NCBI GenBank assembly: GCA_004022145.1 | Contig: RCNU01000003.1 | Origin: Paecilomyces variotii | Lineage: Eukaryota | Length of the DNA: 64,000 nt | Strand: one strand, 5' to 3' | Shown here: piece after piece, positions 1 through 46,434 of the stretch | How the letters are laid out: each line of letters opens with the position of its first letter | How positions within the stretch are numbered: position 1 is the first letter of the stretch | The notes under the pieces: model-generated | What the model was told of the DNA's origin: nothing | The model's database searches: none | What the model saw: only the letters and a program-made list of their open reading frames with translations | Made by a program: the position numbers and the translations under genes

Positions 1-994
1 GATCTTTTGAAGCTCTGAAACATCTGGCAGTAAAGACGGCGCCATGACTCGTAGCTGTGAGCGTGACACGACAGGAAACAATGGAAATACATGTGTTAAG
101 AACCTAACAAGTTTTAGTAAACGAAAAACTGATCAGGAACTGCATTAACAATCGGTTCACATACAGTTTGAACAATCTGCGACCATCTTCCGTAGGAATG
201 AGATTTTCCAGTTCAGTCCTCAGATCGTTTTCTGAAGAAGATGGTGCGGTGTCACTCTTAAATCCCTCTACAAGGTCATTTGAAGCAATCATGAAATGAA
301 CAGGGACCTGCTCTGGTTCGCTGATATCAGCTACATTCCGAAAATGCACCTTGTAGAATCTGCGAAGGCCGTGCTCATCAAATCGACAGTGTCGTAGCAG
401 CCATGGATCTGACTCTGCAGATATTCCGAACAACTTCGCAGTGAAGTCTTGCATTTCATCAAGCGAATGATTTGTTGATGCATGATCCTCTCTCTGATAA
501 GTCTCGGAACCGACACCCTGCGGCGACGAGTTCTGATTGATCGAGGATGCAGGAGATAGATCCGGGGCACCCCCGATATCTACGCTATGAATGCCATTAA
601 TAGGTTTATCCTCTGTTGTGGGATCTTCTTCATGGTAGACCTGTGGCGATAGCACATCTTCCATGGCATCTTCGCCTGCTGATGTTTTCGGCGTAAAGTC
701 GCCATACCGATCCAGCGAGCTGTCTGGGAAGCCTTCAGATGCCGCTATAGCATCCCAATTGAGCATCTCTCTCCCCAAGTCGAGATCCTGCCTCTTCACT
801 TTATTGGATCGAGGTTCAACGGCCAGGACGAAAGTGCAGTCCACCCGTGCTGCTTTGCAACGTTCGCACGGGGGTTCATGATCGATCCGGCAGCCCAGCT
901 TGCGATGGCGACAGCGATCACATGGGCGACGTCGTTTAGATCGATATGGACGCGGACTGCCAGGAATGCAATTCGGGGAAGAGTTACTCGCCAT
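1..994 (-). CDS. Zn(II)2Cys6 fungal transcription factor (3' part runs off the window start)
   Basis: CDRCRHRKLGC...CERCKAARVDC six-Cys binuclear cluster. A GTATGT...TAG intron at 164-104 continues the frame into LFLTHVFPLFPVVSRS, typical of the start of the fungal-specific TF domain. Confidence 0.9.
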
Positions 995-1692
995 CGAACA
1001 AAGGAGTCCTTGCTTGTTGAATGTCGGAGTTGTCGCTCTGATCCATCACCCCATTCTATCGGGGAGAAAGCCGTACTCTAAATTCTTAGTCTTTGGATTG
1101 ACTAATAATTCGAGCTAATAGTTAATACGGGGTTATAATCATCGCGCTAGAGCTAAAAGTGTATAACCGGCTAACGGGGTCACAAAGCTGGGCCAGAGCG
1201 ATGTTCGCTCATTTTATTATCTGCGATACTTAAATACATCTGGGCAGATCTCCCCACTTTTGATTTCTTGATGCGGGGTTCACTGCGACATTGATAATCC
1301 CGAGTCGAGACTGGATGCCGCGGAGATTCTATTATATTTCTGAAGTATTTTGGGTTTATTCAAACAACACCGAGATCAACCTATGGCTTCCTATGATTGG
1401 AATGTGTTGCTCCCTTGTGATGATCTCGTATACAAGTCCCATACCGATAAATGTCGATGCACCTCCAACTGCAGACCCCAAGATCACCCCCGGACGCACT
1501 GTTACTGAGGAGCTGCGATGCTGATCAACGGTATATTTGATTTTTTTTTCCCTCCATGTGGCTAAAGAATGCCTCCTAGAACAGAACACACAGTGAATCG
1601 TTGACAGTTGCCGCGACAATGATCGCAAGAAGAAAGGCCAAGGCCACCCATCAATCGACTGACCCATATCATATCTAAATCCGGGAAATGAG

Positions 1693-2497
1693 TCATTGCT
1701 GGCAATATTTACTTCCAATACCGCGCTGGACTGCTGGTCGCGCGGCAATCCGGTCAATCCACTGCAGGAGATGCGGGAACTGCGACACTTCTTCCTTGGT
1801 GAAGCCGCTACGCTCCCAGTTCTTAACCCACGGCCACGTCTTGATGTCAGCCACGCTGTATTTGCCCTTTCCTTTTCCAGCCAGATACTCTCTTGGCTGA
1901 CCGGTAAATTTGCCGGAGAGTTGGATCTCGAGGACGCCGAACACGCGAAGGGTTTCGTTTCTGAATCTCGTGATTGCATCTAGAAAACCATAGAGTTAGG
2001 TTGATACCCACACGATGAAGGGAAGAGTAGATCTAGATTGGACACATACAAGGGATCTTTTCGGGTGCAACCTTGGTGAAATGGTTTACTTGGCCCTGAT
2101 ACGGCGCACCGCCTCCATGCCAGAAAAACAGCCATTGGATCGCCTCGTTGCGCTCCAGCTCGTCGCTGAAACCGAATTCGTGTCTCTTATCGTACGTGTC
2201 GATTAGATACAACAATTGAGCCGATGTCTCGATCACAGGGAAAGGCGGCGATCGCGTGTTGTCCACCAGAGTGGGAATACGTCCGTTTGGGTTCAGACGG
2301 AGAAACCACTCCTTCTTCTGCTCGTTCGTCGAGATATTGATCAGAGTCGTAGTCCATTCAGTTCCGTAGACATCTGCCAATTCTTCTAAGATAATCTGTG
2401 TCGCCTGGCCATTGGGTGTGCTCTGCGTGATAAGGTGCAGTCCCTTGGCCTCCTTGACCTCCTTGGGAGTCTCAGAAATATACAGTTTGTCAGCCAT
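1693..2497 (-). CDS. Glutathione S-transferase (Ure2/GST-II-like), 2 exons
   Basis: TPNG, LNPNGRIPTLVD, ETSAQLLYL and YSVADIKTWPW motifs. Intron 2049-1980 (GTATGT...TAG) joins the two ORFs in frame. Confidence 0.92.
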
Positions 2498-3166
2498 TTT
2501 CAAAGTTACAATTGACAGAGAATTAAAGGATAAGATGAAAGCTCCAATGCAACTTACAGGAGATGCGTGCACCTCTACTTATGTATCCTTGGCTTACAGC
2601 CAGGTGAGGGACGAATCGTCATCATTGCGGGGTTGTATTGCAGCATCTTGAACCCCGCGTCGGACAGAGCTGGTTTATTACAAATCAACAGAGAGTGAAT
2701 AGTTATCACTAGTCGCTGTTATAGCGATGATGATAAATGCGATGGTTTAGTCACGCCAGACTGGAAGAGTATGAGGATGTCCGGTCAACAGCAAACGTAA
2801 TACTGGGTCTGAAGCACGCATGCCGATTGCGTACATTTGGCGAAGTGTACAGTATAAAATTGCAATAAACATCAAACAAACTCCGCATCATTATCAGTCA
2901 AGAAATGAGTCGCTACTATTACCTTTGCGCAAATGATTTACCAGATAGATATTATTAAGCTCATACAAGTCCATAAACATTCAGTCAAATCCAGTCTCCT
3001 ATTATTCTCCTTCCGGATCTCGTGAACGCCCTCCCCAGTATCATGAAAATACTCTCTAAAACCCACACACCGCCAAAATAACATGATCCGATCCCTCTTC
3101 CCCAATTACATCCCCGATCTAAGCCCTACAGACAGTGAGGTCGGTGGGAAAACCAAGGAGATATTC

Positions 3167-4573
3167 TCAGGAGGAGACAGTAGCAGCAAGTCGGACGGTG
3201 AGGAGCTGGTTCACATTTGTGGATCCATCCTCTGCGAAGCAAGCAAGATCTTCAAAATCCTGGATATATCTATCGATTTCATATCCTATACCGCTGGCAT
3301 GGAATATCTCTGCAAGTCTGTAGTGCACATCCAAGAAGTCCGGATCTGGCAGCTTAATATGCTCATACCCAGGACTGGCGCGAAGCTGTAAGATTCGATT
3401 CTGCGGCAATGCCGGCAAGAAAAGATCAGTGAAGAGAGGATATACCTTCACTTCATATTCATCTTGGTTGCCCTGGAACGAGGAGACAAATTAGGATCTA
3501 TATTTGCAGGTGAATAAATGAGACTTCAGTCTATGCATACCGTAGGTCTTAGTGCAATGCGGAAGTCTCCGAACTCGTCATAAATGAAGGCTGCTAACGT
3601 TATAGTATTCGACGGGTCATTTATATTGTCCGTATGAATCTTTTTGTTAAGTCCTGGGAAGCAGTTATACAAGCAGTTCCAACGCTGCATTGCGTTCCTG
3701 TCCGAAGGCTATAGGATATTAGTAAAATAATGCAAAAATAAAAATAGATACATACCTCTTGATTTTTGTAGGACCCATAAAGGAAGGGGATGATATGTGC
3801 CACTTCTAGCTTCGCCACCGTGCCTTCTCCAGGAGGTACTTCGGCACCGGTATTCCTGAAATCACTTGCAAGCAGATACCTGGTGATAATACATCGTCTA
3901 CCATCTCTCTTCAATGTATTCTCATATATTTCTTGTTCTCGTCTAGCGGGAGAAGATAGATACGAGGTAACTTTCTCCGCTTGTTCTTGATGCAGCGGGA
4001 TAGGGGATTGAGGAATAATTGATTTTTTTAGATTAGTTCTCACTATATACAATGGTTAAAAGTAAATTTAAATTAATAGAAGAGGTCAAACTAACTTGGG
4101 ATGAATAGTGATTGGTATATATAATCGAAATAATCGTGCAGTCTCGCGTCATTATCCATACTTAAGATATCCCGCGTAAGGTTTATTGCTCCTAACTCTG
4201 GAAGGAACTCAAGGGAGGCCAATAATCCAGGTACTAGCAGCTTATCCCGACTGCGGTCTCCGAGAATATATCTTTGCACACGATCTATTGCATTGCGCTT
4301 CAAAGTTTCCCAATCTTCAGCCAGGGTAACGGAGAACCCAGACAAGTTCGACATTGTCGAAGGTTCTCTGTAAGACTGCACCTGCTCGCGCCGAAGGTGT
4401 TCCCGGTTGCGCTCCTGTTCAGGCTGCTTCTCGGGCTGCTTCTTGGACTGCTGTTCGGGTTCCTGGTGAGGTTGTTGTTCAGACTGTATATTCTGTCTCT
4501 GTCTCCGTCTTTTGGGCTTTTCATAGAGACCATACTCTGGCTCCTCGCCCCGTCGAGACCTTCTTAGCGTCAT
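3167..4573 (-). CDS. Fungal HNH_2-type nuclease-domain protein, 4 exons (possibly RIP-affected)
   Basis: Spliced frame gives RDGRRCIITRYL...LEVAHIIPF...NINDPSNTITLAAFIYDEFGDFRIAL...LPDPDFLDVHYRLAEIFHASG, the characteristic layout of fungal HNH_2 proteins. Three GT-AG introns restore an open frame. Confidence 0.75.
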
Positions 4574-4660
4574 CGCAGCGAGGATAAGATAAGAGAACGA
4601 TGTGGAGAAGTGGATTATTGGCTGGAGTACTTAACTCGAGGCTCGAGCCTTGACAAATTA

Positions 4661-5226
4661 CGGAGAAGTGTCTCAAAAATAATAATTGCGGAGCACTAGT
4701 AAGATTGACTGTTGACGGAAGTCGACTAGACGACTAGACCAAAAAGGAGCCTGGAGAACTCCTTAAGAGGTCTGGTCCTAGCTGGATCTAACAACTGTTT
4801 TTTGTTGGAACTTGGACACCCCCTCCGGAGTCCGGTGGCTCCTGTTGGGCGTCCTGTTCACTAGTGTCACGTGACCTAGGCGAGCCCATATACCTATACC
4901 TAGATTCAATCAAGCAAGCTTTCTCCCGCTTCCTTCATGCTAAGCTGGCCTTTAATTCTATGGCCTTTCTAGCTCTATTTGGAACCCTCCCGACCTTCTA
5001 TATATTCATTTCCTCCGCAGCGAATAACAGCTTTAATATGATCTAAGATACGTTCTATCTAAGCCTGGATTTTCTTTCCTGGGGAAGATCCTCCAATGCC
5101 TTATTCCACTATATTCTTCCAGTCTTATTATCTATCCCTATGAAGGAAAGGATTAGTATAGGGCGTGTATGAGAAAAACAGTCAATCTTACTAGTGCTCC
5201 GCAATTATTTTTGAGACACTTCTCCG
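4661..5226 (-). mobile_element. Non-autonomous, internally deleted Tc1/mariner-type DNA transposon (MITE-like) with ~50-bp TIRs and TA target duplication
   Basis: 4661-4713 and 5177-5226 are inverted repeats (identical except a 3-bp indel), flanked by TA at 4659-4660 and 5227-5228. The interior minus strand (~4980-5100) encodes a broken transposase C-terminus, DLPQER/IQA*IERILDHIKAVIRCGGNEYIEGR. Confidence 0.88.
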
Positions 5227-5488
5227 TAGTGTATGGGATAGACTAGAGTTTGGTCGGCACGGAGTTTATGTGGATTGTCTGCTTTTTGAGCGATGCGGTC
5301 GAACCGAATATGGTAAGTTAGTTAGCGCGCAACTATATAGGACAGTCCAAATTGGTAGCACTAGCAAAAAACATCTTCTCACCCACAGATAGGATAACTG
5401 CGGTTCAATAGGACAAGATTACTGAGTAATACAGGGTATCTAGAATACAGTTAAGCTCTGCTGGACCATAATCATCAAAAACCGCTGA

Positions 5489-5524
5489 TCAGCTGCATGT
5501 GTGTGTGAGACATGTTGATAATAA
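5489..5524 (+). repeat. 36-bp direct repeat, copy 1 (copy 2 at 13344-13379)
   Basis: tcagctgcatgtgtgtgtgagacatgttgataataa versus tcagctgcatgcatgtgtgagacatgttgatgataa, 33/36 identical. Confidence 0.8.
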
Positions 5525-5617
5525 GATAATAGAATGTCTGATAGATAATTTGGATAGTAAAGAGCTTTGGGACTTGGGATTATATAGTTATTTTTTTTTT
5601 ATCTTCATGTAAGCTAG

Positions 5618-6932
5618 TCATAGTAATTCATCATATTGATAACACAAGATCCCTGTCTGCGTATCCATCACATCATCGACACTGACATCAGATGCGAAGC
5701 CGTCGAAATCGAGCATATCTGTTATGTGCGCGGAAACAGTAGAGTTATTTCGTGAAATCCCATCGTAACCCCCTAAGGGGTTTCCATCGCGATGGTGACG
5801 CTGTTGCCAGATCCACCATACGCGATCAACCTGGCCATGATGAAGGAAGAAGACGGGGTCTGTGGTGACCATTAGTATGGACTATTACAGATGGAAAAGA
5901 ATGAGGACGGGATCCATAAGATAACATACCATTTGGCGCGGTGACCTTGGAGAAATCACCCTGGACAATATAGGGGATCGTTAGGTGAGAGGCCTGTTCC
6001 ACCTTGAGTAGAAAGTCATAATAATCCTGCTCTTCGAATACTCGGTTCAGTATCGCCGGCTGGACGGTCAGTCTTCCGACCCTTCGGATCACTTCATCGG
6101 CGAGGAAGCCTCTAGAAAGACAGTGAGGGTGATAATTCCCCTCATAGTAGGCGGCCTGAGCTCCTGCAAAGGGTCCGTCGAGAACACAGCGGCCGTTAGC
6201 AACGCTTTCAGCACCAGATCCGCTTCCTCCAAATCCAGTCTCATTGTCCCAGACCGGGGACTTGCTTAGATCCTCCCAATCTAAAGACCAGTTCCAATAC
6301 CTGTTAAGTGTGGAACGCAGATTGTCAGTCATTAGTAGAAACGGGGTGCCAGGTGAACACGCACGGTAGAACTCCACTATAGTTGCAGTGCTTGTGCAGC
6401 GCTTGCTCATACAGATGAATGAAATATCGATGCCACGGGAGAAAAGGCGCGGCATTGTGAGCTATATAGTCGGTTAGTCGTCGAATTCTCATCAAACTGC
6501 GACGAGCGCAGTAAGGCAGGACCTTCACACACAGTAGTTTCCGATACGACTATGGAGGAACACAAAGTCGTCATGGATTGTAGTCTCTGATCGCCTCGTG
6601 GATGGCGATTCAGTCAAACAGCGGGCTGCTTCTATATACGCCAACTTTTCACTTCGGTCCAGCGTCCTCCATTCCCGCCGGACAGTGGGATTCTTGCATA
6701 GTCTCGACGGCACAGATGACGACGGGGAAAAAGACAGAATAAAAGCAACGACAGAGAGGAAGAAGACACCGGCAGTGATCGAGAGAAATATCCACCATAA
6801 ACGATCCTGTTTTCTCACTGCTGCTTTCGAAGGTGGATTCGCATCTTCAGGATCGTCCGTCAGACCCGGGGACGCTGAGATAGTGGGAAGCCTGTCGCCA
6901 GAAAGAAAGCCGCATTTCGCAGACTCGTCCAT
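5618..6932 (-). CDS. Type-II membrane-anchored tyrosinase-like (type-3 copper) oxidase, UstQ/PhomQ-like, 4 exons
   Basis: N-terminal TM helix, then C-x-N-P-x-VRREWRTL, FVFLH, HNAAPFLPWHRYF, PYWNWSLDW, CLSRGF and APNDPVFFLHHGQVDRVWWIWQ tyrosinase motifs across the spliced ORFs. Confidence 0.9.
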
Positions 6933-7158
6933 TGGAAGAACATATCAATCGTACAATCCCTGAATGATTGCCTGCAAATATGTACTTTGTAGTTGGAGAC
7001 TGCAGCGTTTCTGAAACTCGCCACTCGGACAGAAACCCAACGACGACCACGAAACAGAAACCTGGACCACCATTTGCGGAAAATAGATACGACGTCAGAT
7101 CAGCAATTATCTGTGGATTTTGGAGATTCTGCAGCCAAGTAGGCCTACTGCCAAAACG

Positions 7159-7217
7159 GTCCTAAGTCCGACAGCACGTTAACATCTGGCCCCCATGCAA
7201 GCTTTTGGCCCCATGCA
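7159..7217. promoter_or_regulatory. Candidate cluster-specific cis-elements in the tyrosinase/DUF3328 divergent promoter
   Basis: TCTGGCCCCCATG (7185-7197), a variant TGGCCCCATGCA (7206-7217) and GTCCTAAGTC (7159-7168). The 13-mer and the 10-mer recur inverted in the precursor/OMT divergent promoter. Confidence 0.45.
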
Positions 7218-7459
7218 TCGGTAGCGTCGTGGGATTGAGCAGATCCCCAGCCACAGAGAGTCAGCAGTTGACACAAGACCTTAGTCTCCTGTCATTATTG
7301 CTAGACTCATGTGTGCTGTAATCTAGTTACCGTAACAATATCAGCCGATTAAAGGTTCCTAGTAGCGTAACTTAGGTTGCTGATTCTGTTATTCTTTCCT
7401 ATCTTCCTCTAAGCTCAGTGTTGTGCTTCAGATAGATGTCGATTTTAATATCTCTGAAG

Positions 7460-8453
7460 ATGGCTCCAGAATACAAAATCCTGTCTACAGGTGAATCAGA
7501 TGACGAGTCTGGTAATCTGAAATCTACCTCCCTAGAGCAAAAGAATCTCCCTCTGAAATGGAAACTTCTCATCTGCGGTCTGCTCTTATCGAATTTGCTC
7601 ATGCTGGCCGCCTTTTATACGAATAGAGGCTTTTCAGAAAAGGAAGAGTCGCACCCTGAAGCAGTGCCCACGAATTATGGTGAGTTATTGATACAAAGGA
7701 AGGAGAGGGGGGAGGGGGGGGGGTTGTCCATTAGTTTCCCCTCATTTAATGTCCAAAAGCTCTAATTGGAAAGGGAAACAGCAAAAGTCGATACATTAGA
7801 CACCATTTGGAGGCCCTTCTGGTGGAACACGGAATACAGCAGTACGAATGCCTCCGAGGCAGATGAGCTCTGGGACGCCATTCTTCCTTCTCACGGCTTC
7901 GTCGCCATGGATCGCACCTGGGCAAAGGAGAACCAGTGGCCCGAAAGCATGTACCTTCCATCGGATAAGAGCAAGGGAGTATACTTGCTGGAGGCGTATC
8001 ATTACCTCCATTGCCTTGTAAGCGAATCCTTATGAGACATTTGTGGCGTGAATGGAGACACAAACTGACTGATGGAATCATTTAGCGGATCGTCCGCAGA
8101 ACTTTCTGGGAAGCGGTCGAACAGAGACCTTTTACGCACAAACCGGGCGCTCATATGAACCACTGCTTTGATGCGCTGCGTCAGGTATGCCGTTGTATCA
8201 CAATGTGGGAGACCACTTGTAACTGATCGTGTTCTAGTATGTTCAATGCAACGCCGATAATACCCCGCTGTACACATTCGGGGACTTTACTGCCGGCGAC
8301 GGTCAAGTCCATAAGTGCAAGGACTGGGATCAGCTGCGCAGCTTTGCGACGCAGAATACAGCATGTTACCGGGATAGCGTGGAAGCAATTCCACTGGGCG
8401 AGCATTTCGGATTCTGCGACGATGGAAATGACGGCGTTATCGATTTACCTTAA
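7460..8453 (+). CDS. DUF3328 / UstYa-family oxidase 1, 4 exons
   Basis: N-terminal TM anchor, two HxxHC motifs (YHYLHCL, HMNHCFDALRQYVQCNAD) and a C-terminal HKCKDWDQL, all assembled with GT-AG introns. Confidence 0.92.
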
Positions 8454-8538
8454 AATGGCTATTTACTTTGAAAGATATTCTCTTAGTTGACGATAATGAC
8501 ATAAAAAAGATCTTCTACCGATATATTCATATCACTGC

Positions 8539-9475
8539 TTACATTCTCGACCGTGCATCGCTGTGGTTGTGCGCAGGTAGTAGTTCGTGGGGAATAAAGC
8601 CATGCGCGTCGAAGACCCTCCATTGTTCAGCCCATGCTTTGACTTCCTCGTAACTGCGGCACTGTCGGTCAAAACCCCAGTTCGGATTATTGTTTATCAT
8701 CTGAGTAGCTGGCTCCAGGTTGGCGTCTGCAGCGCACATGAGACTCTGGCGCAAGTAATCGAAGCAGTGGGCCACGTGAGGAGCTCGGTCGATGTTGAAG
8801 TCAAAGTCCTCGTTATCGGACGCAGTGGAGTAATATGCTCGACGGACTAGATACTGTAGAAGAGGAAGACAAATTAGAATATCAAGAATACTACCAGTAG
8901 AAACCGCAGGTTACGTACCAAGCAATGGAGCTGGTGAATGACACCAATCACAGACAATTCCGGAGCCAATTCGGGGTGCTTGATATATCCTAGTCCATCT
9001 GCAGATAGTGAGTGACGCTTTACAAGTAAACAAGGACGAAAAAAGACTTACTCGGTATGATGGCATTCCAGACAGTGTCAGGCTCGCTAGGCGGGGGAGC
9101 AGCTTCAAAGGCGGTATCGTGATGGACATGCTGCTTTGTCCAGTCGGAGAGAGGGACTGCCACTGTTATTCACATTCTTAAAAAAAAAGAGAGGGAGGGA
9201 GAAGGGTCGCGGAAAAAGACAAATGGACTATACATACTCTTTGGAATGGTTCCTGGCAGATCAGATGTGCTAGAACAATTTGTCGAGGGTAGGAAATGCC
9301 TCGCGATGACAACGCCCATTACCAGCCCGCAAACCCACAGAGCAGCACCTGCTAAAGCATAGAAAAAGACAGTATATGGTATGCTCTTAGCATTCCGATT
9401 ATTATCAATTTTTCCCTCCTCACTAGGCTCTACTGAGAGCTTAGAGTAACGTTGACCGAACAGCGAATCCATCAT
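8539..9475 (-). CDS. DUF3328 / UstYa-family oxidase 2, multi-exon
   Basis: MMDSLFGQRYSKL..., a TM helix, then FHQLHCL and HVAHCFDYLRQSLMCAADANLEP...WGFDRQCRSYEEV: twin HxxHC motifs. Internal exon boundaries are approximate. Confidence 0.9.
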
Positions 9476-9827
9476 TGTTGTGGTTGGGGTGTGGAGAGAA
9501 ACTAAGTATGAGCTGGACAGCGGAGGGACTAAGTACTTTAACTTAGTACTCACACCCCCATCTAGGTCAGGATGAAAACCGCCACTATATTGGCCAAACA
9601 AGTCAAGCAAGCAGATAACACGGCTTTACTGAGTCTTCCTTTTGAGAAAATTGCACTGAAATAAAGTCTAGTTGTATTTGTATTTGTATTTTATTTAGAT
9701 ATAAGATCAATTATGGTATCCTCTTAAAACGCCCTTGGGTCAAAAAGACCAAATCTCCATGCATATCACTTATTCGTCTAGCAGATTCGCACCCATCCCT
9801 TATAGTCTTGCTTCCCCGATGACTCGT

Positions 9828-10054
9828 TCAGTAAGTGTCGCCAATGTTCTTGAGATCGACCTCGTCAGCTGAGTTGACGCGAGGAACTGCAGATTAAGCA
9901 ACGTTAGAAGAGTTTATTGTTCGATGTTTCTGGCAATCTATTCAATTGGAGACCACCTACCGGAGTGTTCGTCGTTGGGGGCAGCAATTGGGCTGGCCAT
10001 GGAAAAGCCAACGAGGCCAAGGAGGAAGAAAGTGATAACCTTGACGGACTGCAT
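9828..10054 (-). CDS. 50-aa secreted peptide, candidate RiPP precursor: MQSVKVITFFLLGLVGFSMASPIAAPNDEHSVPRVNSADEVDLKNIGDTY
   Basis: Exon 1 10054-9961, intron 9960-9887 (GTAGGT...CTAAC...GCAG), exon 2 9886-9828 (TGA). Classic signal peptide ending ...SMA|SPI. It lies between a DUF3328 gene and the OMT. Confidence 0.8.
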
Positions 10055-10273
10055 TGTGGAATATGGATGCACAGAGAGAGCTGGTAGTGTTCGAATGGAT
10101 AGATCTGATATTGAGCACGCTTTCTGGTGTCTGCTTTGGAGGAGGAGAAGGATTGCTAGGTCTTTGCTATCGAGGATGGGAGGCCAACGACTACGGTGAG
10201 AGAGATTTAAGTATACAGCTGAATACAAGTTAATAATTAGATAGAGTCATGCATTGACACACAATAGGAAGGT

Positions 10274-10573
10274 CATGGGGGCCAGAAATGTTCCGCAGCG
10301 GGACGGGAGTGTGGAGAGCATATCGACTTTCCCAGCGTGATGACATGGATTCATGGGGGTATTGGGGTTCTGCTAGTTCTTAAGCTGATATGCATTGTTT
10401 TAAGAGCCGTTGTATGACCTAACTAATAATAATGCCGTTGAAAGGTCCAAGTATTCGACGGACCGCTGCAGATCCCTGGAGGCAGACTTAGGACGGGATG
10501 AAGCGCCTGCAGCACCGGAAGTTGGGGGCCAAACAGAAAGTTAGACACTAATGCTGCAGAAACAAGCATGGGG
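10274..10573. promoter_or_regulatory. Repeated CATGGGGG(CC) motifs in the precursor/O-methyltransferase divergent promoter
   Basis: CATGGGGGCCAGA 10274-10286, CATGGGGG 10352-10359, TTGGGGGCCA 10522-10531, GCATGGGG 10566-10573, GACTTAGGAC 10485-10494. Confidence 0.45.
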
Positions 10574-10855
10574 TTTGAGTATACTAGATCTTTTTATTTA
10601 CCGGTAAAAATAGCACATTGGTCTTGATGCTAGGTACGCACGAGACGATCTGTGACAGTTGCACGCGTGCGAGATTCGCGAGAACCATTAACAGTGATCA
10701 GCGTCGTAAGCTACTTGATGGGGTTTCTTCAACTATCTGCAGCTAAAAGTATTTCGAAATATTCCCCTTCGTTATCTATTAATGGTTAATTAAATTCGAA
10801 TCTTAATAACATACCACCGAAGAGAACCGAAGCGTCATCCTCAGTCAGTCACATC

Positions 10856-12360
10856 ATGGAGTCCAATTCCGAACTCTTGAAACTGGCTTCAGCGATATCC
10901 TCCTCCACAGCTACTCTAGATCGATATCTGAAGGATAACGGGATAGCAGAGCCGTCGTTTGATGCCAATGCTCCTCCTCAACTGGCCCTCAAGTCTGCTG
11001 AAGCATTCCAAGCCAAAAACTCAGCTATCAATGCATGCCTGGAGCTGCTCGATCGACTGCAAGGGCCACTGACATGTATGCTTCCTTTGGTAGGTTCTTA
11101 GTGATTGAAATGAATGTCAATTTAATAACTTGCTAATGCCTGGTTAGTACAATGGCAGCGCCCTGCAGGCGATTTCACGCTACAATATTGCCACCCATGT
11201 CCCCATTGACGGAAGCGAGATTTCCTATCCCGATCTCGCCAGCGCAGCCGGTATACATGTCGATGATCTGAAGCAGGTCATCCGCTTCGCTATCGTTTTT
11301 CATCGACTGTTTCAGGAGCCCCGGAAAGGATATGTCACCCATTCTGCCGGGTCGCGCAAGATCGCAGAAGACCCAATTGTGCAGGCTGGTGTTGGGCAGT
11401 TCGATGAATTTTATGGCTCGTTTGCCAGAGTGAGTTCGTCGTGAAATTTAGATCATGCTGTTGCTGACAGTCAATCTCAGACGGTGGACGCCATGACCCA
11501 ATTCCAGGGGCATGAGCCAAACGAAACGGTGCGTCAGGGAAACTATCCTCACTCTTTTATCTTCTTCGTTTTCTGATTAATTGACAGGGTTTCTGCCTCT
11601 CCCACAATACCAACGAGGATCTATTTAGCTATCTTCGCTCGCGGCCAGCCGCAGCGAAGCAATTCTCCGAGGCGATGAAATTCTATACAGGTCCGATTCC
11701 GGCATATTCACCGAATCTCCTAGTGCAGGGCTATCCGTGGCATCAACTTGGGAAAGATGCCGTCGTAGTTGACATGGGGGGTTCAACTGGCCATGTCGCA
11801 CAGTTAATTGCGCAGGCAGTGCCTGACATTCAGGTTATCGTCGAGGATCTCCCACATGTTGTCACAGAAGCAGAATCAGCAAGAGCCATGGACAACCAAG
11901 AGCTGCGACAACATCGTCCAGTCCTGTTCAAAGCACATGATTTCTTCACGCCGCAAACAGTTGTCGCCGATGCATACCTGCTCCGCTGGGTGCTGCACGA
12001 CTGGCCAGATCACTACGTCCTCAAGATTTTGCGCCAGCTGGTGCCTAGTCTCCGAAAAGGAGCACGTGTTATTATTAACGAAAGCTTGTGTCCTGAATCA
12101 GGGTCATTGCCGCTGGCAACGGAGCGATACATCCGGTAGGGTCATACTGATAATAGATCTTATAAAAAAGAGGAAGCTGACGACGGTTGATCTCCAGATA
12201 CATGGACTTGATGATGTTGGCCATTAACAAATCACGATTACGGGACGAGGAAGAGTGGCAACAGCTGTTTCGCGAAGCGGACCCCAGGTATGGACAATTG
12301 AAGTGCTGGACACCGGAGGGATCAGCATTGGCCATTATGGAAGTAGTCTGGGAGGGGTAA
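10856..12360 (+). CDS. SAM-dependent O-methyltransferase (Methyltransf_2 family), 5 exons
   Basis: N-terminal dimerisation region (LxxYLxxxGxxEPSFD), VVDMGGSTGH SAM motif, HDFFTPQ, LRWVLHDWPD, then MDLMML...R.EEEW. Confidence 0.92.
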
Positions 12361-13343
12361 AGAAGCCATTGTATCTAATCCGTCGATCTAGCTGAGAAAT
12401 ACCGGTTGGCTTTTTCCAGTGGAGACGGTAACATGTATCTAATTACTTGGTTCAAGTAACTAATTACGACAGACCGTCAAGACGGTGGCTGGAAGATAGG
12501 GTCCGTGAATCAAAGTAATTAGAGTATATAACCTTATATGTTAGTGTGCCAACATACAACATTTCTCGGCTGGAACCGCAGATCCCTGAACGCCACGAGC
12601 CATAAGTCATCTTAGTGCGCTCTAGTTTGATCTTTGGCTCTTGACTCTTGAGTACAATGTGCAATTCCCGCCCCCACGCGGTCGATCTGCTTATTCCTAT
12701 CACGCCAAACAGTCGAATAGAACTGTTACATCGACCTGAAAATTTGATCAGCCCCTCAGATATTAGACCAGCCCCTCAGATATCAGTTTTGGAACCCTAT
12801 TCATTCATATCTGTCCTCCAGTAGGGGCACTGCCCTGATAGTAACACAACGTCGTCCTAGGACCCCGAAACAGTCCAATGATAATACATGAGTTCTGCAG
12901 GAAGGCCTGACGCCGAGATACTTACTGCCGCCCTCTGCGCGTGCCAATGTTTGTGCGCAATATAGGTAGACTCCGTCTGACCCGCTTCGAACCGGGCCAC
13001 GCAGTACCTAGATAGACTTCGGATTTGTCCACATTGGGAAGATATTGTTCTTTACTTAGCGTAAAGTTTCTAGTATGACCTTGCATCGAGTCTAGGTAGG
13101 TTCTTCTACACCTTAATGATCCCGCCGCGGAATGGAGGATTTTGAATTGCCGTCCCAACCACGCGATCGTATGATCTAAGTACATCGAGTGGCTGGAAGA
13201 ATTGTGCAACATGTTGATCGTTGGCACTCACTGAAGAATTTCCTACGGAGTATTAAATCCATTTATAATTCAGTTAACTATCCGACACAGGGTGAAAAGT
13301 TCCGCCTTAGTGATATCATACTAAGTCATCTTTTAGTCCTTTG

Positions 13344-13379
13344 TCAGCTGCATGCATGTGTGAGACATGTTGATGATAA
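13344..13379 (+). repeat. 36-bp direct repeat, copy 2 (copy 1 at 5489-5524)
   Basis: 33/36 identity to 5489-5524, same orientation. Confidence 0.8.
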
Positions 13380-13576
13380 TTGGGCGTGATAACAATTGAC
13401 TGATTCCGGTAACCATCGCATCATTTTTTATTACCCTATCGTTACCACCTAATTATGAAATGAAAAGCTGGTTGGATTGTTTCTATAATTTAATTTACTC
13501 TGAGAAGTAGAGCCGTGCTATGCGTTACCTCTTTTAGTACATGAGATAGATCTATTTGTTCCTTTCTTGCTACCAA

Positions 13577-14599
13577 TCATACAGGCACCGTAACATCTTT
13601 CAAAATCTGGAGAATACTATCGACGTCTTCCTTCGGAGTCCGACCCATGCCACACTCTGTAGCTACTCCAAAATCGCGTGGGACCACGGAACGGGCGACT
13701 TCGATACGTCGCTTTGTTCCCTCCAGGTCATGAGGATGCACGAGGCCCAGGTAGAGCCGTCCATTGGGGCCGATGTTGAGCTCCTTCAGCGGTTCGAAAT
13801 AGGCCTCGTCGTCCCGACTCTTGGGGACTGGGAGGTGCACCCAATCGACAGGATGCTTAAGACGGCCAGCGATCGAGTTGGCCAGATCAACGATTAGCCC
13901 TGTGTCCTGTGGTTCGACAAAGTGCTGATGGTTAAGGTCTCCGTAGCAGAGATGGAAGCCCAATGGAACATTTGCCGGAATATTAGCGCTGATGCGCTCC
14001 AACCGGTCGAGGATGCCTTCCTTGACAGGGGAGAACCAGGCTTTGAGGAAGGGCTCCTTGATATTACCGCGGTCGAATTCGAGCGCTGTGACCTCGAAAC
14101 ACACGTCCCACTGCAGCGCCAGGTCTTCCGCGGGAATCTTATCGATGATGTTCGCCAGCGAATCGAGCATTCGCTTTTCGTAGAGAGGCTCTAACTGTGC
14201 GTGGAATTCACTTCTGGTATGGCCTTGAATGCAGGCCAGCGGTGGAGGCAGCGCGACCAGGAACCGCACACCTGGCGGGATGATATTTTTCTTGCGTAGT
14301 TCGACAAAAGTCTCGTAGGACTTCAATGCTACCGTATCATATTCTGTTGGTGGAATCGACTCTAGAGTAAAGCCTGGATGGTCGGCCGGCGGTTCGGTGC
14401 CGCCCAAGAAATACTGGATGGTCTCCTTTGGAAAACGAGCGAGCTGCCATCCGATATAGTTGCCTCGATCGCCCGTTTCGCCATCGGGGATGCAACGAAC
14501 TCGCCCAGGGAGACTGTTGGCAACTGTAGTGAAGACTTCCTCCGCTGACGACAGCGGAATACTCCCCACTAGCAAGACTTCGGACGGAGCAGCTGTCAT
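13577..14599 (-). CDS. Intronless MetE/UROD-like (cobalamin-independent methionine synthase C-terminal-like) TIM-barrel protein
   Basis: 340-aa ORF with LLVGSIP, IPDGETGDR, LQWDVCFE, GFHLCYGD (HxC), LYLGLVH and VATECGMGR (C-terminal Cys). This is the Zn-ligand pattern of the MetE superfamily. Confidence 0.75.
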   Translation of the reverse strand: MTAAPSEVLLVGSIPLSSAEEVFTTVANSLPGRVRCIPDGETGDRGNYIGWQLARFPKETIQYFLGGTEPPADHPGFTLESIPPTEYDTVALKSYETFVELRKKNIIPPGVRFLVALPPPLACIQGHTRSEFHAQLEPLYEKRMLDSLANIIDKIPAEDLALQWDVCFEVTALEFDRGNIKEPFLKAWFSPVKEGILDRLERISANIPANVPLGFHLCYGDLNHQHFVEPQDTGLIVDLANSIAGRLKHPVDWVHLPVPKSRDDEAYFEPLKELNIGPNGRLYLGLVHPHDLEGTKRRIEVARSVVPRDFGVATECGMGRTPKEDVDSILQILKDVTVPV

Positions 14600-15190
14600 A
14601 TTTCGAAGCGGTGGAGTGTTGTCTTTAAAAAGAAATCGAAAAGTAGGCTAATAATATTGTCTATCTCAGTTTTCTCCCAAGGTTGGCAAGTGCCACGAGG
14701 AGAGACCAATGGCCTTATGAACCTTTGGGGGGGTTATGCTCTTTGAAGGGAAGATGTGATATGATATCCGGGGTGGGGAAGTGTTTTTGTGAGGGAACCG
14801 GGGCAAAGTAAGTACGTACTTACTTAGCAGACAATCGTCCAGGTCGTTCTTTTTGGACCCCATCCGGCTAATGAGATCACTAACACACGTTCTCAGAAGG
14901 AGACATGTAAGCACTATACATAGATACATACAATGCAGATCATCAAGTCGCAATACCACTTTTTTTGGACAATAAGCTAGAGCTGCTCCTCCCCGTCCAT
15001 CAGCCCTGCCCCAGTCCTTGCACCGGAGAAATGGCCCCCAAATCTATATGCAACTAGTCCATCAGATGAAGTGGTGAAGTGTCGTAGACAGCCACAATGC
15101 AGATCGCAAAGTAAGATGTTCGCTTTTTTAAACTATCCATGACTGCCCCTCTCCGCTGTCATTCAGAATTAACCACTGTATCTGTCAACC

Positions 15191-16704
15191 ATGGCCTCGT
15201 CCCTGACGCCAGAGGAAATTGCCTATTACAAGGCGCATGCCAGTGACAACTTGTCGCCAAATGAAATCGCTACAGATGTGATCGGGTTTATTGTCGCCTT
15301 TACGGCAGTCATCCTCAGAGTAATTGCTCGTCGGCGATCTAGGAAGCAGTGGGGATTTGGCGCAGATGACTGGATGATCGTGGCTGCTATGGTGAGAGAA
15401 TCAAGATGATAATTATCATTATCATTTAGTACAAGAGTATTTTTGCTAATGCACTCGATATAGTTCCCACTGACGGGGTACACAATCTTGCTGGCTTTAT
15501 CGATAGCCAATGGCGAAGGACGACATATCATCTTCCTCAAAAACCCCAAAGCCTTCATCCAGGTACGTTCACACTGTCATGAGTAGTCTGCTAGACCTAT
15601 CTAGCTAATACGGTGCACAGGAATATGTCGCGGCCATTGTCTGCTATTCCGTCGGCGTCATGCTGACCAAGATTTCGATCCTGCTCTACTATCATCGTCT
15701 CTTCCAATCGGTGACCCTATCATGGGTCATAGGGGCAGTTGTGGTCGCCTACAATCTGGCCGTGATATTCGTCGCCGCCTTCGAATGTATCCCACTGTCT
15801 AGTATGTGGACAGGACAACCTGGGAAGTGTATAGCTACGAAAGTTCCTTTTACGATACTGGCGTGAGTAACCACTGGCTCCAACTGAATATCTGGAGAGA
15901 TCTCAAGTTTTGATGTCATTTATTTTTTCAGGGTCATGAACACATTGACGGATATCGCTATATTGACTCTTCCTGTTCGCTATGTGTGTAAATTGCGCAT
16001 GCGGACGACGCGCAAGGTCCAGGTGCTCGCTATTTTCATGTTGGGAGGACTGTAAGTCTCCCTCAGATACCAAATTTACTTACGCATAGTGTCAATCGCG
16101 GACTGATCAATTTTGCATTTCAGCGTTACAATCTTTGGTATCATTCGAGCCGTTGCAGTCGGCACGTCCAAATCAACGGATCCGACCTGTAAGTCACGCT
16201 ATGCTGTGGTCTTCCAAAACTCCCAATACTGATTCATAATGCTCCACAGACAGCGCGGTCTATGAAGGAATCTGGTCATACACCGAAATGTGTGTCGGTG
16301 TGGTCGCCGCTTGCCTACCTACTTTAGGCCCTCTTGTCAGAAGCGGACAGTCAGGAAGCACGGGGAGAAGCCTCTCACTTAAATTCCTGACCCCTTCTCT
16401 ACGGACATGGCGTATGTCAGCATCTCAGAATCGAGCAAGCGCTTCGATAGACGACAAAGCGAGCTGGAAATTGCATGGCTGGCCGTCATCCCAGGATGGA
16501 CAACAGGACTTCTCCAGCACGGTGCATGCCAATCCATCATCTCTCGAGGAAGCAAAAGAGAGAGGAGGATCGTCGGATAATGATAGTGGGGTGAATTTCA
16601 CGGTAGTTGTGTCGCCTGAAGAAGAAGGTGTCGCACGAACAGTATCTCCGCCTCTTGAGATTCGTGTCAAAAGAGGCCTTCATCAGTCTTTTGATCATGT
16701 ATAG
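15191..16704 (+). CDS. Pth11/Sat4-like 7-TM integral membrane protein (fungal rhodopsin-domain family), multi-exon
   Basis: V.LR..AR...GADDWMIVAA, TKISILLYYHRLF, CIPLSSMW, TDIAILTLP, IWSYTEMCVGVVAACLPTL motifs. Confidence 0.85.
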
Positions 16705-17103
16705 AAACTTTTATTTGCACAAGTCATTCTATGATACCACTTTAACGAGATGGGTTTCCCTGGGAAGGAAAGGTTTCTTGGTTGTCAGTTTAGTACTTCT
16801 GTTATTTCCGCCTGATTTTCTTGTTTCATAAGGTATATTGTCCAAGGGTACATGGTGTTTTCGGCTGTTATTCTTCATGCTGGTTACAGCGACTGTACAT
16901 ACAACCTGAGCCATCGTTGATTAGCCAATCCGAGTTCTTACAAGATCATGATTAATTAGAAATCCACAGTGAGCGTAGGCACGTACTGTTCTTGCTACAG
17001 AAGGGATAACAAATTTATGGACTTCCATGCTTCTGTACGTATTGCCATTTATATTTACATTGTTGATGACGAAATCTAGGTAGATCATGCATTGTTAAAT
17101 CCC

Positions 17104-24300: not shown

Positions 24301-24640
24301 ACAAGAAGACGATCAAACGGTTGGCTTTTCTCCAATCTTGATGAACTGTTAATTGCCTTACCTGATACCCAGTTTTCTGGCATGCTAGCATGAAAATGAA
24401 ATAGCGCACATCGTTGCTTCCCATATAAGCCAGCGTCTCCCGGGATTGTGCCGGCCCAATAGTGTTCTCAATCCACCAACTCATGAGGTTCACTGCTTGT
24501 GCCAGATCCTTCATCGATAGATCACGGAAGCCACTGGTCAGCTCTGATCCTTGCGGAATCACCGCGAACAGTTTGTCAGGAGTCTTCTCAGCAAGACGGT
24601 CGAGGGTTGTTGCGAGGAGTCTTTTCCTTTTAGTCTCCAT
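21342..24640 (-). CDS. NRPS-like carboxylic-acid reductase (A-T-R), 4 exons
   Basis: IIHSSGTTG|MPKP, PFFHGMG and GRKDDVIVLSNGEKFNP (adenylation); GLDSL (phosphopantetheine Ser); TGSTGSLG, HNAWKVDFN and GYAESK (SDR reductase). Confidence 0.92.
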
Positions 24641-24876
24641 GCTGTCTGTGGGCTTTAACAAATTAATTGCTTTCAGAAATAAATGCTGTTTATTATGCAA
24701 ATGGTGGAGAAATCGTAAATGAACCAGTGTGTGTGACTCGGAATCGCCTCTCTTGAAGGGGTCATTCTCATGAGTTATATAGTTATGGTAAGGCAACCCA
24801 TCCTCCGGCGGTTGGTCCAAACTACTAGGCATCTTCCGTTTCAACCGGCATGTCGAGCACATCGAGTGGTAGTTGT

Positions 24877-27515: not shown

Positions 27516-27542
27516 ACAGTTATCGGATAGGGAAGATAATTT

Positions 27543-45427: not shown

Positions 45428-46434
<1,007 letters not shown>

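What the first reader, a model, noticed from the sequence alone, without database searches (positions are those of the whole stretch)
9828..10054. Hidden 50-aa precursor with a single, non-repeated core ending in Tyr
Seen: the ORF track shows only exon 1. Splicing yields a signal peptide plus SPIAAPNDEHSVPR-VNSADEVDLKNIGDTY*. There are no tandem core repeats and no KR/RR dibasic site, only a PR. An acidic ADEVD stretch precedes the core, and the only Tyr is the last residue. Established: known dikaritin precursors (UstA, PhomA, AprA) have multiple Kex2-separated repeats with acidic spacers. Inference: this is a single-core precursor type that repeat-based (KEP) mining would miss, with the terminal Tyr as the likely site of oxidation, crosslinking or methylation.
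Basis: partly seen in the sequence, partly recalled or inferred. Interest (0 to 1): 0.8.

Follow-up and report, generated by a model that had tools for sequence, protein, structure and literature searches.

The report
Single-core peptide gene in UstYa cluster
A tiny, spliced and actively transcribed fungal gene sitting among ustiloxin-type oxidase genes probably encodes a non-repeated starting peptide for a modified peptide natural product, a kind that repeat-based searches overlook.

Summary
The splice joint is present in RNA contigs of 3 of 4 runs laid, from three studies. The product equals an annotated hypothetical protein of Paecilomyces variotii, so it is not hidden in this reference.

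The gene lies directly upstream of a UstYa/DUF3328 gene. A second UstYa gene, a membrane tyrosinase, an O-methyltransferase and a MetE-like gene sit within 5 kb, and all were transcribed in the same runs. No repeat-type precursor exists in 1-20000.

Only two homologues were found among 1.84 billion proteins, in Talaromyces stipitatus and Aspergillus sclerotiicarbonarius. They conserve the exon-2 module V.RV.S..EVDLK.IGD.Y, 13 of 19 positions invariant against 5 of 31 upstream. None has KR/RR. In one homologue the Tyr is followed by KV.

Best reading (0.6): a single-core, Kex2-independent dikaritin-like precursor. Whether the homologues are linked to UstYa genes, and what the product is, could not be tested. 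It is a new variant of a known kind.

The parts
9828..10054 (-). Precursor-candidate gene: exon 1 10054-9961, intron 9960-9887, exon 2 9886-9828 (stop 9830-9828). The product is 50 aa and equals P0001.
   Evidence: sequence and splice; joint 9886|9961 in 3 of 4 runs; identical annotated protein
9995..10054 (-). Residues 1-20, a predicted signal peptide: n-region with K5, hydrophobic core, S-M-A before the likely cut.
   Evidence: (hydropathy), rule-based reading only; SignalP not run
9887..9960 (-). 74-nt intron (GTAGGT...CTAAC...CAG). It splits codon 32.
9831..9886 (-). Conserved exon-2 module, residues 32-50: V.RV.S.[DE]EVDLK.IGD.Y. Proposed recognition sequence plus core; 13 of 19 positions are invariant in 3 sequences.
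   Evidence: alignment A1
8539..9475 (-). UstYa1 (245 aa, identical to P0020 = RWQ96635.1). Introns 9237-9157, 9051-8999, 8918-8854. N-terminal membrane helix and two HxxHC motifs.
   Evidence: PF11807, 78.3 bits on P0020; joints; identity, invariant H136/H139/C140/H167/H170/C171
7460..8453 (+). UstYa2 (256 aa). Introns 7679-7780, 8018-8085, 8183-8235. N-terminal membrane helix; HYLHC and HMNHC motifs.
   Evidence: joints; PF11807 on two exons, 23.9 and 21.4 bits, each just under the 25-bit cut-off
5618..6932 (-). Membrane-anchored tyrosinase (369 aa). Introns 6532-6462, 6362-6299, 5929-5860.
   Evidence: PF00264: 39.2 bits on the CuA exon, 31.8 bits on the CuB exon; cut-off 22.6; joints; helix at residue 48
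10856..12360 (+). O-methyltransferase (424 aa), transcribed divergently from the peptide gene. Introns 11089-11146, 11430-11480, 11528-11586, 12135-12196.
   Evidence: PF00891, E 6.4e-24; joints in X1, X6
13577..14599 (-). Unspliced 340-aa gene, MetE-like (cobalamin-independent methionine-synthase-like) by language-model features only. Transcribed.
   Evidence: no Pfam hit; atlas 0.97 to MetE-named clusters; contig 12971-14732
7187..7195 (+). TGGCCCCCA motif in the tyrosinase|UstYa2 divergent promoter (within the exact 13-mer TCTGGCCCCCATG, 7185-7197).
10276..10284 (-). The same motif about 220 nt upstream of the peptide ATG (within the same exact 13-mer, 10274-10286).
10523..10531 (-). The same 9-mer in the peptide|OMT intergenic region.
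15032..15040 (+). The same 9-mer upstream of the MetE-like gene.
104..994 (-). Zn(2)Cys(6) transcription factor, running toward the window start. Possible cluster regulator; membership not shown.
1693..2578 (-). Glutathione S-transferase (N and C domains in two reading-frame pieces).

Best explanation
The gene encodes a single-core precursor of a dikaritin-like (ustiloxin-type) ribosomal peptide natural product. Shown: it is spliced and transcribed. It has an N-terminal hydrophobic signal-like segment. It lies directly upstream of a UstYa gene inside a block of transcribed genes for two UstYa/DUF3328 proteins, a tyrosinase, an O-methyltransferase and a MetE-like protein. The three oxidases each carry one N-terminal membrane helix. 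The exon-2 module V.RV.S.[DE]EVDLK.IGD.Y is conserved across three genera of Eurotiales. Inferred: the peptide enters the ER and the signal is cut after Ala20. The acidic [DE]EVDLK stretch serves as the recognition sequence. The tyrosinase plus the two UstYa proteins, the trio that makes the Tyr-Ile ether ring of ustiloxin, oxidise the conserved Tyr50. They cross-link it to a nearby beta-carbon, most likely that of the invariant Ile46, so the residue order is reversed compared with the Y.I. core of ustiloxin. The O-methyltransferase then methylates a phenol or catechol oxygen. Release uses the conserved single Arg34 and/or Lys44, not Kex2 dibasic sites, giving a product of about 6 to 16 residues ending at or near the Tyr.
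For: Splice joint 9886|9961 in 3 of 4 runs laid, from three studies; introns of all five neighbouring genes are confirmed in the same contig sets. Pfam: UstYa on P0020 at 78.3 bits, tyrosinase exons at 39.2 and 31.8 bits, Methyltransf_2 at E 6.4e-24. The peptide gene's stop is 353 nt from the UstYa1 ATG, and the two proteins have consecutive GenBank accessions RWQ96636/RWQ96635. No repeat-type precursor lies in 1-20000. Between 5400 and 14800, RNA cover is accounted for by these six genes, leaving this as the only unassigned small secreted product (84 contig pieces were not shown). Membrane helices in tyrosinase, UstYa1 and UstYa2 (mean KD 2.6, 2.3, 2.05) and a signal-like segment in the peptide put enzymes and peptide in the same compartment. 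Conservation: 13 of 19 residues invariant in 32-50 against 5 of 31 in 1-31, with homologues at E 2e-5 and 1e-4 against 1.84 billion proteins. The 9-mer TGGCCCCCA occurs 5 times in the window against 0.42 expected (0 of 100 shuffles reach 5). Four of the five are in promoters of this block, including two upstream of the peptide gene. Literature, passages read: ustQ/ustYa/ustYb suffice for the first cyclic ustiloxin intermediate, and UstA cores are flanked by ED and KR (PMC6514808). Lichen 'Clan R1' clusters (two UstY, tyrosinase, OMT) have no repeat precursor, and the authors raise 'a single core peptide' (PMC12048977). The closest non-Paecilomyces relatives of UstYa1 found are from lichen fungi.
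Against: No product is known, and no experiment links the gene to the enzymes. Defining traits of known dikaritin precursors (repeats, KR sites) are absent. Only two homologues were found, and their genomic context could not be examined. The UstYa1 search (11 of 29 candidates at E<=1e-10) returned no protein from T. stipitatus or A. sclerotiicarbonarius. That result is weak, because the search works on shared words, but it does not favour linkage. The Tyr is not C-terminal in 1 of 3 members. No protease or transporter gene lies in the transcribed block. The OMT and MetE-like proteins lack signal or membrane segments, so they would act in another compartment. UstYa proteins also occur in non-ribosomal and polyketide clusters (PMC12048977).
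Confidence: 0.6

Rival explanations
1. An independent small secreted peptide, for example a signalling or pheromone-like propeptide cut at single basic residues, that merely lies in and is transcribed with the cluster. In this reading the UstYa/tyrosinase enzymes act on another substrate, either a small molecule or a precursor encoded elsewhere.
For: UstYa proteins occur in non-RiPP clusters (PMC12048977). For the similar lichen clusters the same authors also allow that the precursor is not located in the cluster. No UstYa1 relative from the two homologue-bearing species was returned. The peptide lacks every sequence hallmark of known dikaritin precursors except the signal segment and a Tyr.
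Against: The gene is immediately adjacent to UstYa1, and its promoter shares a motif with the tyrosinase/UstYa2 and MetE-like promoters. It is transcribed in all three RNA runs in which the enzymes are. The three membrane-anchored oxidases need a substrate inside the secretory pathway, and no other candidate is encoded in 1-20000. The invariant Ile and Tyr match the residue pair cross-linked in ustiloxin.
Confidence: 0.22
2. A scaffold-type precursor. Only the Tyr (with or without a neighbour) is modified on the peptide by tyrosinase, UstYa and OMT and then excised, so the product is a small modified-tyrosine metabolite and not a macrocyclic peptide.
For: The Tyr is at or two residues from the C-terminus in all three members. 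The enzyme set (tyrosinase, O-methyltransferase, MetE-like, nearby GST) suits catechol or quinone chemistry. Bacterial precedents with a C-terminal Tyr on a ribosomal peptide (mycofactocin) are recalled from memory, not from any call.
Against: Strict conservation of I46, G47 and D48 as well as Y50 suggests that a longer stretch is part of the product or of a ring. Two UstYa genes plus a tyrosinase is the known macrocyclisation set.
Confidence: 0.12
3. A transcribed but functionless small ORF, or a mis-annotated UTR or upstream transcript of UstYa1.
For: The gene is very short, and only two homologues were found.
Against: It has a precisely spliced intron with canonical signals, needed to reach the conserved module. 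Full-length homologues exist in three genera, with conservation concentrated in exon 2. A separate 551-nt mRNA contig covers the gene (X2 record 8).
Confidence: 0.04

Closest known systems
UstA / ustiloxin pathway (Aspergillus flavus, Ustilaginoidea virens): UstQ tyrosinase plus UstYa/UstYb
   Same: A signal-bearing precursor encoded next to two UstYa/DUF3328 genes and a tyrosinase, plus a methyltransferase and a Zn2Cys6 regulator nearby. Acidic residues precede a short core that contains both Ile and Tyr, the pair cross-linked in ustiloxin.
   Different: One core instead of 16 repeats, and no KR sites. The order is I...Y (spacing 4), not Y.I (spacing 2). The core sits at or near the C-terminus. 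The methyltransferase is of the O-methyltransferase family (PF00891). No P450, FMO or PLP genes were seen in the block.
AprA / asperipin-2a (core FYYTGY, AprY)
   Same: A UstYa-dependent precursor whose core ends in Tyr, with ether links from Tyr side chains to beta-carbons (passages of PMC6514808).
   Different: AprA is a Kex2-processed repeat protein and its cluster has one UstYa and no tyrosinase. Here there is a single core, two UstYa genes and a tyrosinase.
Lichen 'Clan R1' UstY clusters (Parmeliaceae; PMC12048977)
   Same: Two UstY genes, tyrosinase and O-methyltransferase, and no repeat-type precursor detectable. The authors suggest a single core peptide or a precursor outside the cluster. 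The closest non-Paecilomyces relatives of UstYa1 are from lichen fungi (Stereocaulon 58%, Alectoria 53% identity).
   Different: Gene order differs. An FGE-sulfatase gene is reported there and was not seen here; a MetE-like gene is present here. Homology of the whole clusters was not tested, no lichen DNA could be examined for a small gene, and the paper's main text does not name Alectoria or Stereocaulon.
Plant stand-alone burpitide precursors with split BURP cyclases (cyclopeptide alkaloids, arabipeptin; PMC10107690)
   Same: It may work alike. Those are secreted stand-alone precursors with a recognition sequence followed by a 4-5-residue core. The core's conserved C-terminal Tyr is ether-linked to the beta-carbon of an upstream Ile/Leu, for example in FLWGY (passages).
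   Different: An unrelated enzyme family (BURP, not UstYa/tyrosinase) in plants, and those precursors often carry several cores. This is an analogy of logic only.

Membership tests
Dikaritin precursor of the Kex2-processed repeat (KEP) type (UstA, PhomA, AprA) | N-terminal signal peptide | tested here: met
   Hydrophobic segment at residues 6-24, mean KD 2.0, with small residues at -3/-1 before Ser21. Rule-based only; SignalP was not available.
Dikaritin precursor of the Kex2-processed repeat (KEP) type (UstA, PhomA, AprA) | Multiple tandem repeats, each holding a core | tested here: not met
   TRF finds no such repeat in 1-20000. The peptide has one copy of the conserved module. The same holds in both homologues.
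Dikaritin precursor of the Kex2-processed repeat (KEP) type (UstA, PhomA, AprA) | KR/RR Kex2 sites flanking the cores | tested here: not met
   No KR or RR in any of the 3 sequences. Only the single conserved R34 and K44 are present.
Dikaritin-class RiPP locus (defined by UstYa/DUF3328 enzymes acting on a ribosomal peptide) | Precursor gene close to UstYa/DUF3328 gene(s) | tested here: met
   UstYa1 starts 353 nt downstream, and UstYa2 lies within 2.6 kb. Accessions are consecutive.
Dikaritin-class RiPP locus (defined by UstYa/DUF3328 enzymes acting on a ribosomal peptide) | UstYa proteins with two HxxHC motifs | tested here: met
   UstYa1 has HQLHC and HVAHC, invariant in 15 aligned sequences. 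UstYa2 has HYLHC and HMNHC.
Dikaritin-class RiPP locus (defined by UstYa/DUF3328 enzymes acting on a ribosomal peptide) | Aromatic residue (Tyr) of the core cross-linked by an ether bond to a beta-carbon; cyclic product | not testable with these tools
   Tyr50 and Ile46 are invariant, but no chemistry can be inferred from sequence.
Dikaritin-class RiPP locus (defined by UstYa/DUF3328 enzymes acting on a ribosomal peptide) | Homologous precursors also linked to UstYa genes in other genomes | not testable with these tools
   No fungal genomes are held. The metagenome motif scan gave no homologue. Paper searches for the locus tags and accessions gave nothing.
Ustiloxin-type cyclisation set (UstQ + UstYa + UstYb) | Tyrosinase with CuA and CuB sites plus two distinct UstYa paralogues in one locus | tested here: met
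   PF00264 on profile positions 25-58 (39.2 bits) and 195-214 (31.8 bits); two PF11807 genes. Orthology to UstYa versus UstYb was not tested.
Lichen Clan R1 cluster type (PMC12048977) | Two UstY genes, tyrosinase, O-methyltransferase, no repeat precursor | tested here: met
   for the window; for the paper's description.
Lichen Clan R1 cluster type (PMC12048977) | FGE-sulfatase gene and shared synteny | tested here: not met
   No such Pfam hit among the ORFs scanned in 1-29114. Gene order differs from the paper's description.

The most novel reading that the evidence does not exclude
This is the founding, expression-verified member of a family of single-core, Kex2-independent precursors for UstYa/tyrosinase clusters. 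A short C-terminal .IGD.Y core is cyclised by an Ile-Tyr ether bridge in the reverse orientation to ustiloxin, a fungal counterpart of the plant C-terminal-Tyr burpitides. The same hidden gene type would explain the 'precursor-less' UstY clusters reported in lichens and, by extension, part of the many DUF3328 clusters without a repeat protein.
Probability: 0.3. Interest if true: 0.8.

Novelty: new variant of a known kind. Interest (0 to 1): 0.62.

Why it matters
Genome mining for fungal dikaritins starts from repeat-containing, Kex2-processed precursors next to DUF3328 genes. [quoted passage not shown] Here a concrete candidate is in hand. It is spliced, transcribed and conserved in three genera, and it sits inside a compact cluster carrying the tyrosinase plus two-UstYa set that is known to suffice for ustiloxin ring formation.

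That makes the single-core hypothesis directly testable by routine heterologous expression. It also gives a search motif, an exon encoding [DE]EVDLK.IGD.Y at the 3' end of a small gene behind a signal-peptide exon. The gene appears to be missing from all but one of the annotated P. variotii proteomes, which shows how such genes escape annotation.

Tried and rejected
1. Whole genome of the window: not held, so paralogues and cluster borders beyond the window were not examined.
2. Word-index homologue searches with the unspliced ORF and with P0001 found only the protein itself.
3. Metagenome scan with a degenerate DNA pattern for EVDLK.IGD.Y gave 8 loci. Six encode one recurring longer motif that I read, from memory, as annexin-like. 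One is an EVDFK variant inside a long ORF and one is an AT-rich chance match. None is followed by a stop in a small secreted ORF, so there is no homologue.
4. Complex prediction of the UstYa1 lumenal part with peptide residues 21-50: no verdict (score 0.05, mark 0.34; controls not run; the alignments were not used). This counts neither for nor against binding.
5. ESM Atlas with residues 21-50: no usable hit.
6. Earlier-findings look-ups: nothing.
7. Paper searches (full-text library only):
   - core motif words: 3 unrelated papers;
   - locus-tag and accession prefixes of the three peptides and their neighbours: none;
   - P. variotii with RiPP, DUF3328 or ustiloxin: nothing relevant;
   - the P. 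variotii genome paper has no mention of RiPP or tyrosinase;
   - searches for single-core, non-repetitive or dikaritin terms gave only the lichen paper's suggestion.
   Supplements were not opened.
8. Of the 5 phmmer hits, two are long bacterial repeat proteins (P0002, no matched stretch listed; P0005, 35% identity to a repeated domain). I set these aside as spurious.
9. Contig depth: the spliced peptide contig has the highest word depth of the contigs laid in each of X1, X2 and X6 (7174, 388 and 5114, against 969-2675, 8-174 and 24-353 for the neighbours). The tool states that contig depth cannot rank genes and that the runs were chosen with this gene, so I do not use it as evidence.
10. A Kex2 reading of 'PR': the residue before Arg34 is P, T or S in the three members, so a Pro-Arg Kex2 site (recalled precedent, not from a call) is not conserved.
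11. The NRPS-like A-T-R gene at 21.3-25.3 kb as an alternative substrate source: it is separated from the block by a PTH11-like gene and the housekeeping TTI1 gene, and I did not pursue it.

Full report
**1. The observation**

On the minus strand an ATG at 10054 opens a frame that runs for 31 codons. A canonical fungal intron follows at 9960-9887: 74 nt, GTAGGT donor, CTAAC branch site, CAG acceptor. A second exon, 9886-9828, ends in TGA. It has one Tyr, which is the last residue, and no KR or RR. Unspliced, the frame ends after 38 residues, which is why an ORF listing shows only exon 1.

**2. Is it real?**

A search of public runs with 9640-10200 listed 24 runs. Of these, 19 hold part of the stretch, 11 are on record as RNA, and they come from 8 studies. 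I laid four of them on 5400-14800.

- The joint 9886|9961 (74 nt skipped, GT..AG on the gene's strand) is present in contigs of X1, X2 and X6, which belong to three studies.
- X4 gives an unspliced contig with 11 differences in 546 bases. It also covers intergenic DNA and so looks like DNA of a related strain.
- In X1, X2 and X6 the intergenic bin 10424-10737 has no cover, which serves as an internal silent control.
- The same contigs confirm every intron of the neighbouring genes: three each in the tyrosinase, UstYa1 and UstYa2, and four in the methyltransferase.

The peptide equals P0001, annotated as a hypothetical protein of Paecilomyces variotii, RWQ96636.1. The gene is therefore real, spliced as predicted and transcribed. 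It is not hidden in this reference annotation.

It does seem to be missed elsewhere. The adjacent UstYa protein has at least 25 GenBank records from P. variotii assemblies, while the peptide has one. At most four accessions are printed per sequence, so these counts are lower bounds.

**3. Surroundings**

Pfam scans of ORFs and in-frame exons and the RNA-supported models give this map:

| Coordinates | Strand | Gene |
|---|---|---|
| 6932-5618 | - | membrane-anchored tyrosinase; CuA exon 39.2 bits, CuB exon 31.8 bits, cut-off 22.6 |
| 7460-8453 | + | UstYa2 |
| 9475-8539 | - | UstYa1; identical to P0020 = RWQ96635.1; 78.3 bits |
| 10054-9828 | - | the peptide gene |
| 10856-12360 | + | O-methyltransferase, divergent from the peptide gene; E 6.4e-24 |
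| 14599-13577 | - | 340-aa gene with no Pfam family; resembles MetE-like proteins by language-model features only (score 0.97) |

Further out lie an unassigned gene at 3.0-4.6 kb, a GST at 1.7-2.6 kb and a Zn2Cys6 factor at 104-994. On the other side are a PTH11-like gene and the housekeeping TTI1 gene at 17.1-20.6 kb.

- Both UstYa proteins carry two HxxHC motifs.
- Tyrosinase, UstYa1 and UstYa2 each have one strongly hydrophobic N-terminal helix. The peptide has a signal-like segment. The methyltransferase has none.
- No tandem repeat of peptide-repeat size exists in 1-20000, and there is no second copy of the peptide in the window.

**4. A shared promoter element**

Looking for words shared by the block's promoters gave an exact 13-mer, TCTGGCCCCCATG. 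It occurs in the tyrosinase|UstYa2 divergent promoter (7185-7197) and again about 220 nt upstream of the peptide ATG (10274-10286). Its 9-mer core TGGCCCCCA occurs five times in the 64-kb window against 0.42 expected, and 0 of 100 shuffles reach five.

Four of the five sites are in this block's promoters: 7187, 10276, 10523 and 15032. The fifth is at 46329. I found the motif by searching these regions, so the statistic is somewhat flattering. It still fits co-regulation of the peptide gene with the enzyme genes.

**5. Relatives**

An exhaustive phmmer search of 1.84 billion representatives gave five proteins at E<=0.001:

- the protein itself;
- two long bacterial repeat proteins, which I set aside as spurious;
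- two small fungal proteins aligned end to end: P0003 (49 aa, Talaromyces stipitatus TSTA_088010, E 2e-5) and P0004 (55 aa, Aspergillus sclerotiicarbonarius, E 1e-4).

In the three-way alignment, 13 of the 19 residues encoded by exon 2 are invariant: V32, R34, V35, S37, E40, V41, D42, L43, K44, I46, G47, D48 and Y50. Upstream, only 5 of 31 are invariant. None of the three has a dibasic site. P0004 continues for two residues (KV) after the Tyr, so the Tyr is conserved but its terminal position is not.

- no fungal genome is held;
- the metagenome motif scan returned only chance matches, six of the eight sharing one longer recurring motif that I take to be annexin-like;
- paper searches for their locus tags and accessions found nothing.

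A word-index search with the last UstYa1 exon gave 11 of 29 candidates at E<=1e-10. It returned two P. variotii clusters and five proteins from lichen fungi or unnamed assemblies: Stereocaulon virgatum at 58% identity, and Alectoria sarmentosa and A. fallacina at 53%. Alectoria belongs to Parmeliaceae. More distant UstYa proteins came from Talaromyces islandicus, Aspergillus section Nigri, Penicillium and Anthostomella. None came from the two species that carry peptide homologues. This is weak evidence, but it does not favour linkage.

**6. What it most likely is**

Passages of a review (PMC6514808) state three points. The tyrosinase UstQ with UstYa and UstYb suffices for the first cyclic ustiloxin intermediate. 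UstA cores are flanked by ED and KR motifs. The asperipin-2a core FYYTGY is ether-linked from Tyr side chains to beta-carbons. The KEP survey (PMC7329392) states that the ustiloxin and phomopsin cores (YAIG, YVIG, YVIP) are cyclised between Tyr and Ile.

The window holds that same enzyme trio plus a methyltransferase. The only unassigned product in the transcribed block is a secretory peptide whose conserved end contains an invariant Ile and Tyr behind an acidic stretch. My best reading is a single-core dikaritin-like precursor.

- *Shown:* splicing, transcription, adjacency, membrane or signal segments, conservation, and the shared motif.
- *Inferred:* entry into the ER; signal cleavage after Ala20; recognition through [DE]EVDLK; hydroxylation of Tyr50 and an ether cross-link to Ile46 (possibly Asp48) by the tyrosinase and UstYa pair; O-methylation; release at the conserved single Arg34 and/or Lys44 by proteases other than Kex2.

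Confidence is 0.6.

**7. Rivals**

- (a) An unrelated small secreted peptide that is merely co-located, with the enzymes acting on another substrate (0.22). UstYa proteins do occur in non-ribosomal clusters.
- (b) A scaffold peptide from which only a modified tyrosine is excised (0.12).
- (c) A functionless ORF (0.04), which the conservation pattern and the precise splicing argue against.

**8. Comparison with what is known**

The locus works like the ustiloxin system. The peptide fails two defining features of known dikaritin precursors, repeats and KR sites, both tested and not met. It should therefore not be filed as a KEP.

The closest published description is the lichen 'Clan R1' cluster type. 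It has two UstY genes, a tyrosinase and an O-methyltransferase, with no repeat precursor. Its authors suggest either a precursor outside the cluster or 'a single core peptide' (PMC12048977; passages and sections 14 and 22 read). That paper names no candidate gene, and its main text does not mention Alectoria, Stereocaulon or Eurotiales.

A functional analogy is the plant stand-alone burpitide precursors. Their 4-5-residue cores end in a conserved Tyr that is ether-linked to an upstream Ile or Leu (PMC10107690, passages).

My searches of the held full-text library found no description of this peptide family, its motif or a P. variotii RiPP cluster. Subscription-only papers and supplements were not covered.

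**9. Verdict**

It lacks the linkage test in other genomes and any chemistry. It is a new variant of a known kind, and the interest is moderate to high because it turns the 'missing precursor' problem of repeat-less UstYa clusters into a simple experiment.

Noticed in passing
window 7187-7195, 10276-10284, 10523-10531, 15032-15040 (also 46329-46337): The 9-mer TGGCCCCCA occurs 5 times against 0.42 expected, and four copies are in promoters of the UstYa/tyrosinase block. Two of them are embedded in an identical 13-mer. It is a candidate binding site for the cluster regulator.
   Followed up: partly
window 13577-14599 (-): An unspliced, transcribed 340-aa gene with no Pfam family. By language-model features it resembles cobalamin-independent methionine-synthase (MetE)-like proteins. 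This is an unusual partner in a UstYa cluster and its role is unknown.
   Followed up: partly
UstYa1, window 8539-9475 (-); proteins P0008, P0011, P0012, P0048: The nearest relatives of UstYa1 outside P. variotii are from lichen-forming Lecanoromycetes (53-58% identity over the last exon), not from other Eurotiales. The cause could be patchy inheritance or gene transfer; I did not examine which.
   Followed up: no
proteins P0006, P0017-P0029, P0007: UstYa1 is annotated in at least 25 P. variotii GenBank proteomes in 14 sequence variants. A more distant form (90% identity over the exon) occurs in strain No. 5. The adjacent 50-aa gene is annotated only once.
   Followed up: partly
run X4 on window 5400-14800: This run is labelled metatranscriptomic but yields unspliced contigs, about 2% diverged, that cover introns and intergenic DNA. 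This suggests DNA carry-over from a related strain.
   Followed up: no
window 21345-25309 (-): An NRPS-like adenylation, thiolation and reductase gene (AMP-binding, PP-binding, NAD_binding_4). It could be an alpha-aminoadipate reductase or an aryl-acid reductase. It is separated from the block by the TTI1 gene.
   Followed up: no
window 26489-29114 (-): A GH18 chitinase with a chitin-binding type-1 domain, followed by a long 523-aa ORF with no family hit.
   Followed up: no
window 3047-4630 (-): A gene with a basic, Gln/Glu-rich N-terminal part and no significant Pfam family, lying between the GST and the tyrosinase.
   Followed up: no
loci L001-L004, L007, L008: The motif EVDLK.IGD.Y also occurs by chance within a longer motif shared by six metagenome loci, which I read (from memory) as an annexin repeat of AT-rich eukaryotes. 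This is a trap for motif-only mining of this peptide family.
   Followed up: yes
window 9477 and 9628-9704: An X1 contig ends 2 nt upstream of the UstYa1 ATG, with adapter sequence beyond it. The peptide mRNA contig seems to end only about 150-230 nt upstream of that point. The two genes are therefore very tightly packed, and read-through transcription cannot be excluded.
   Followed up: no
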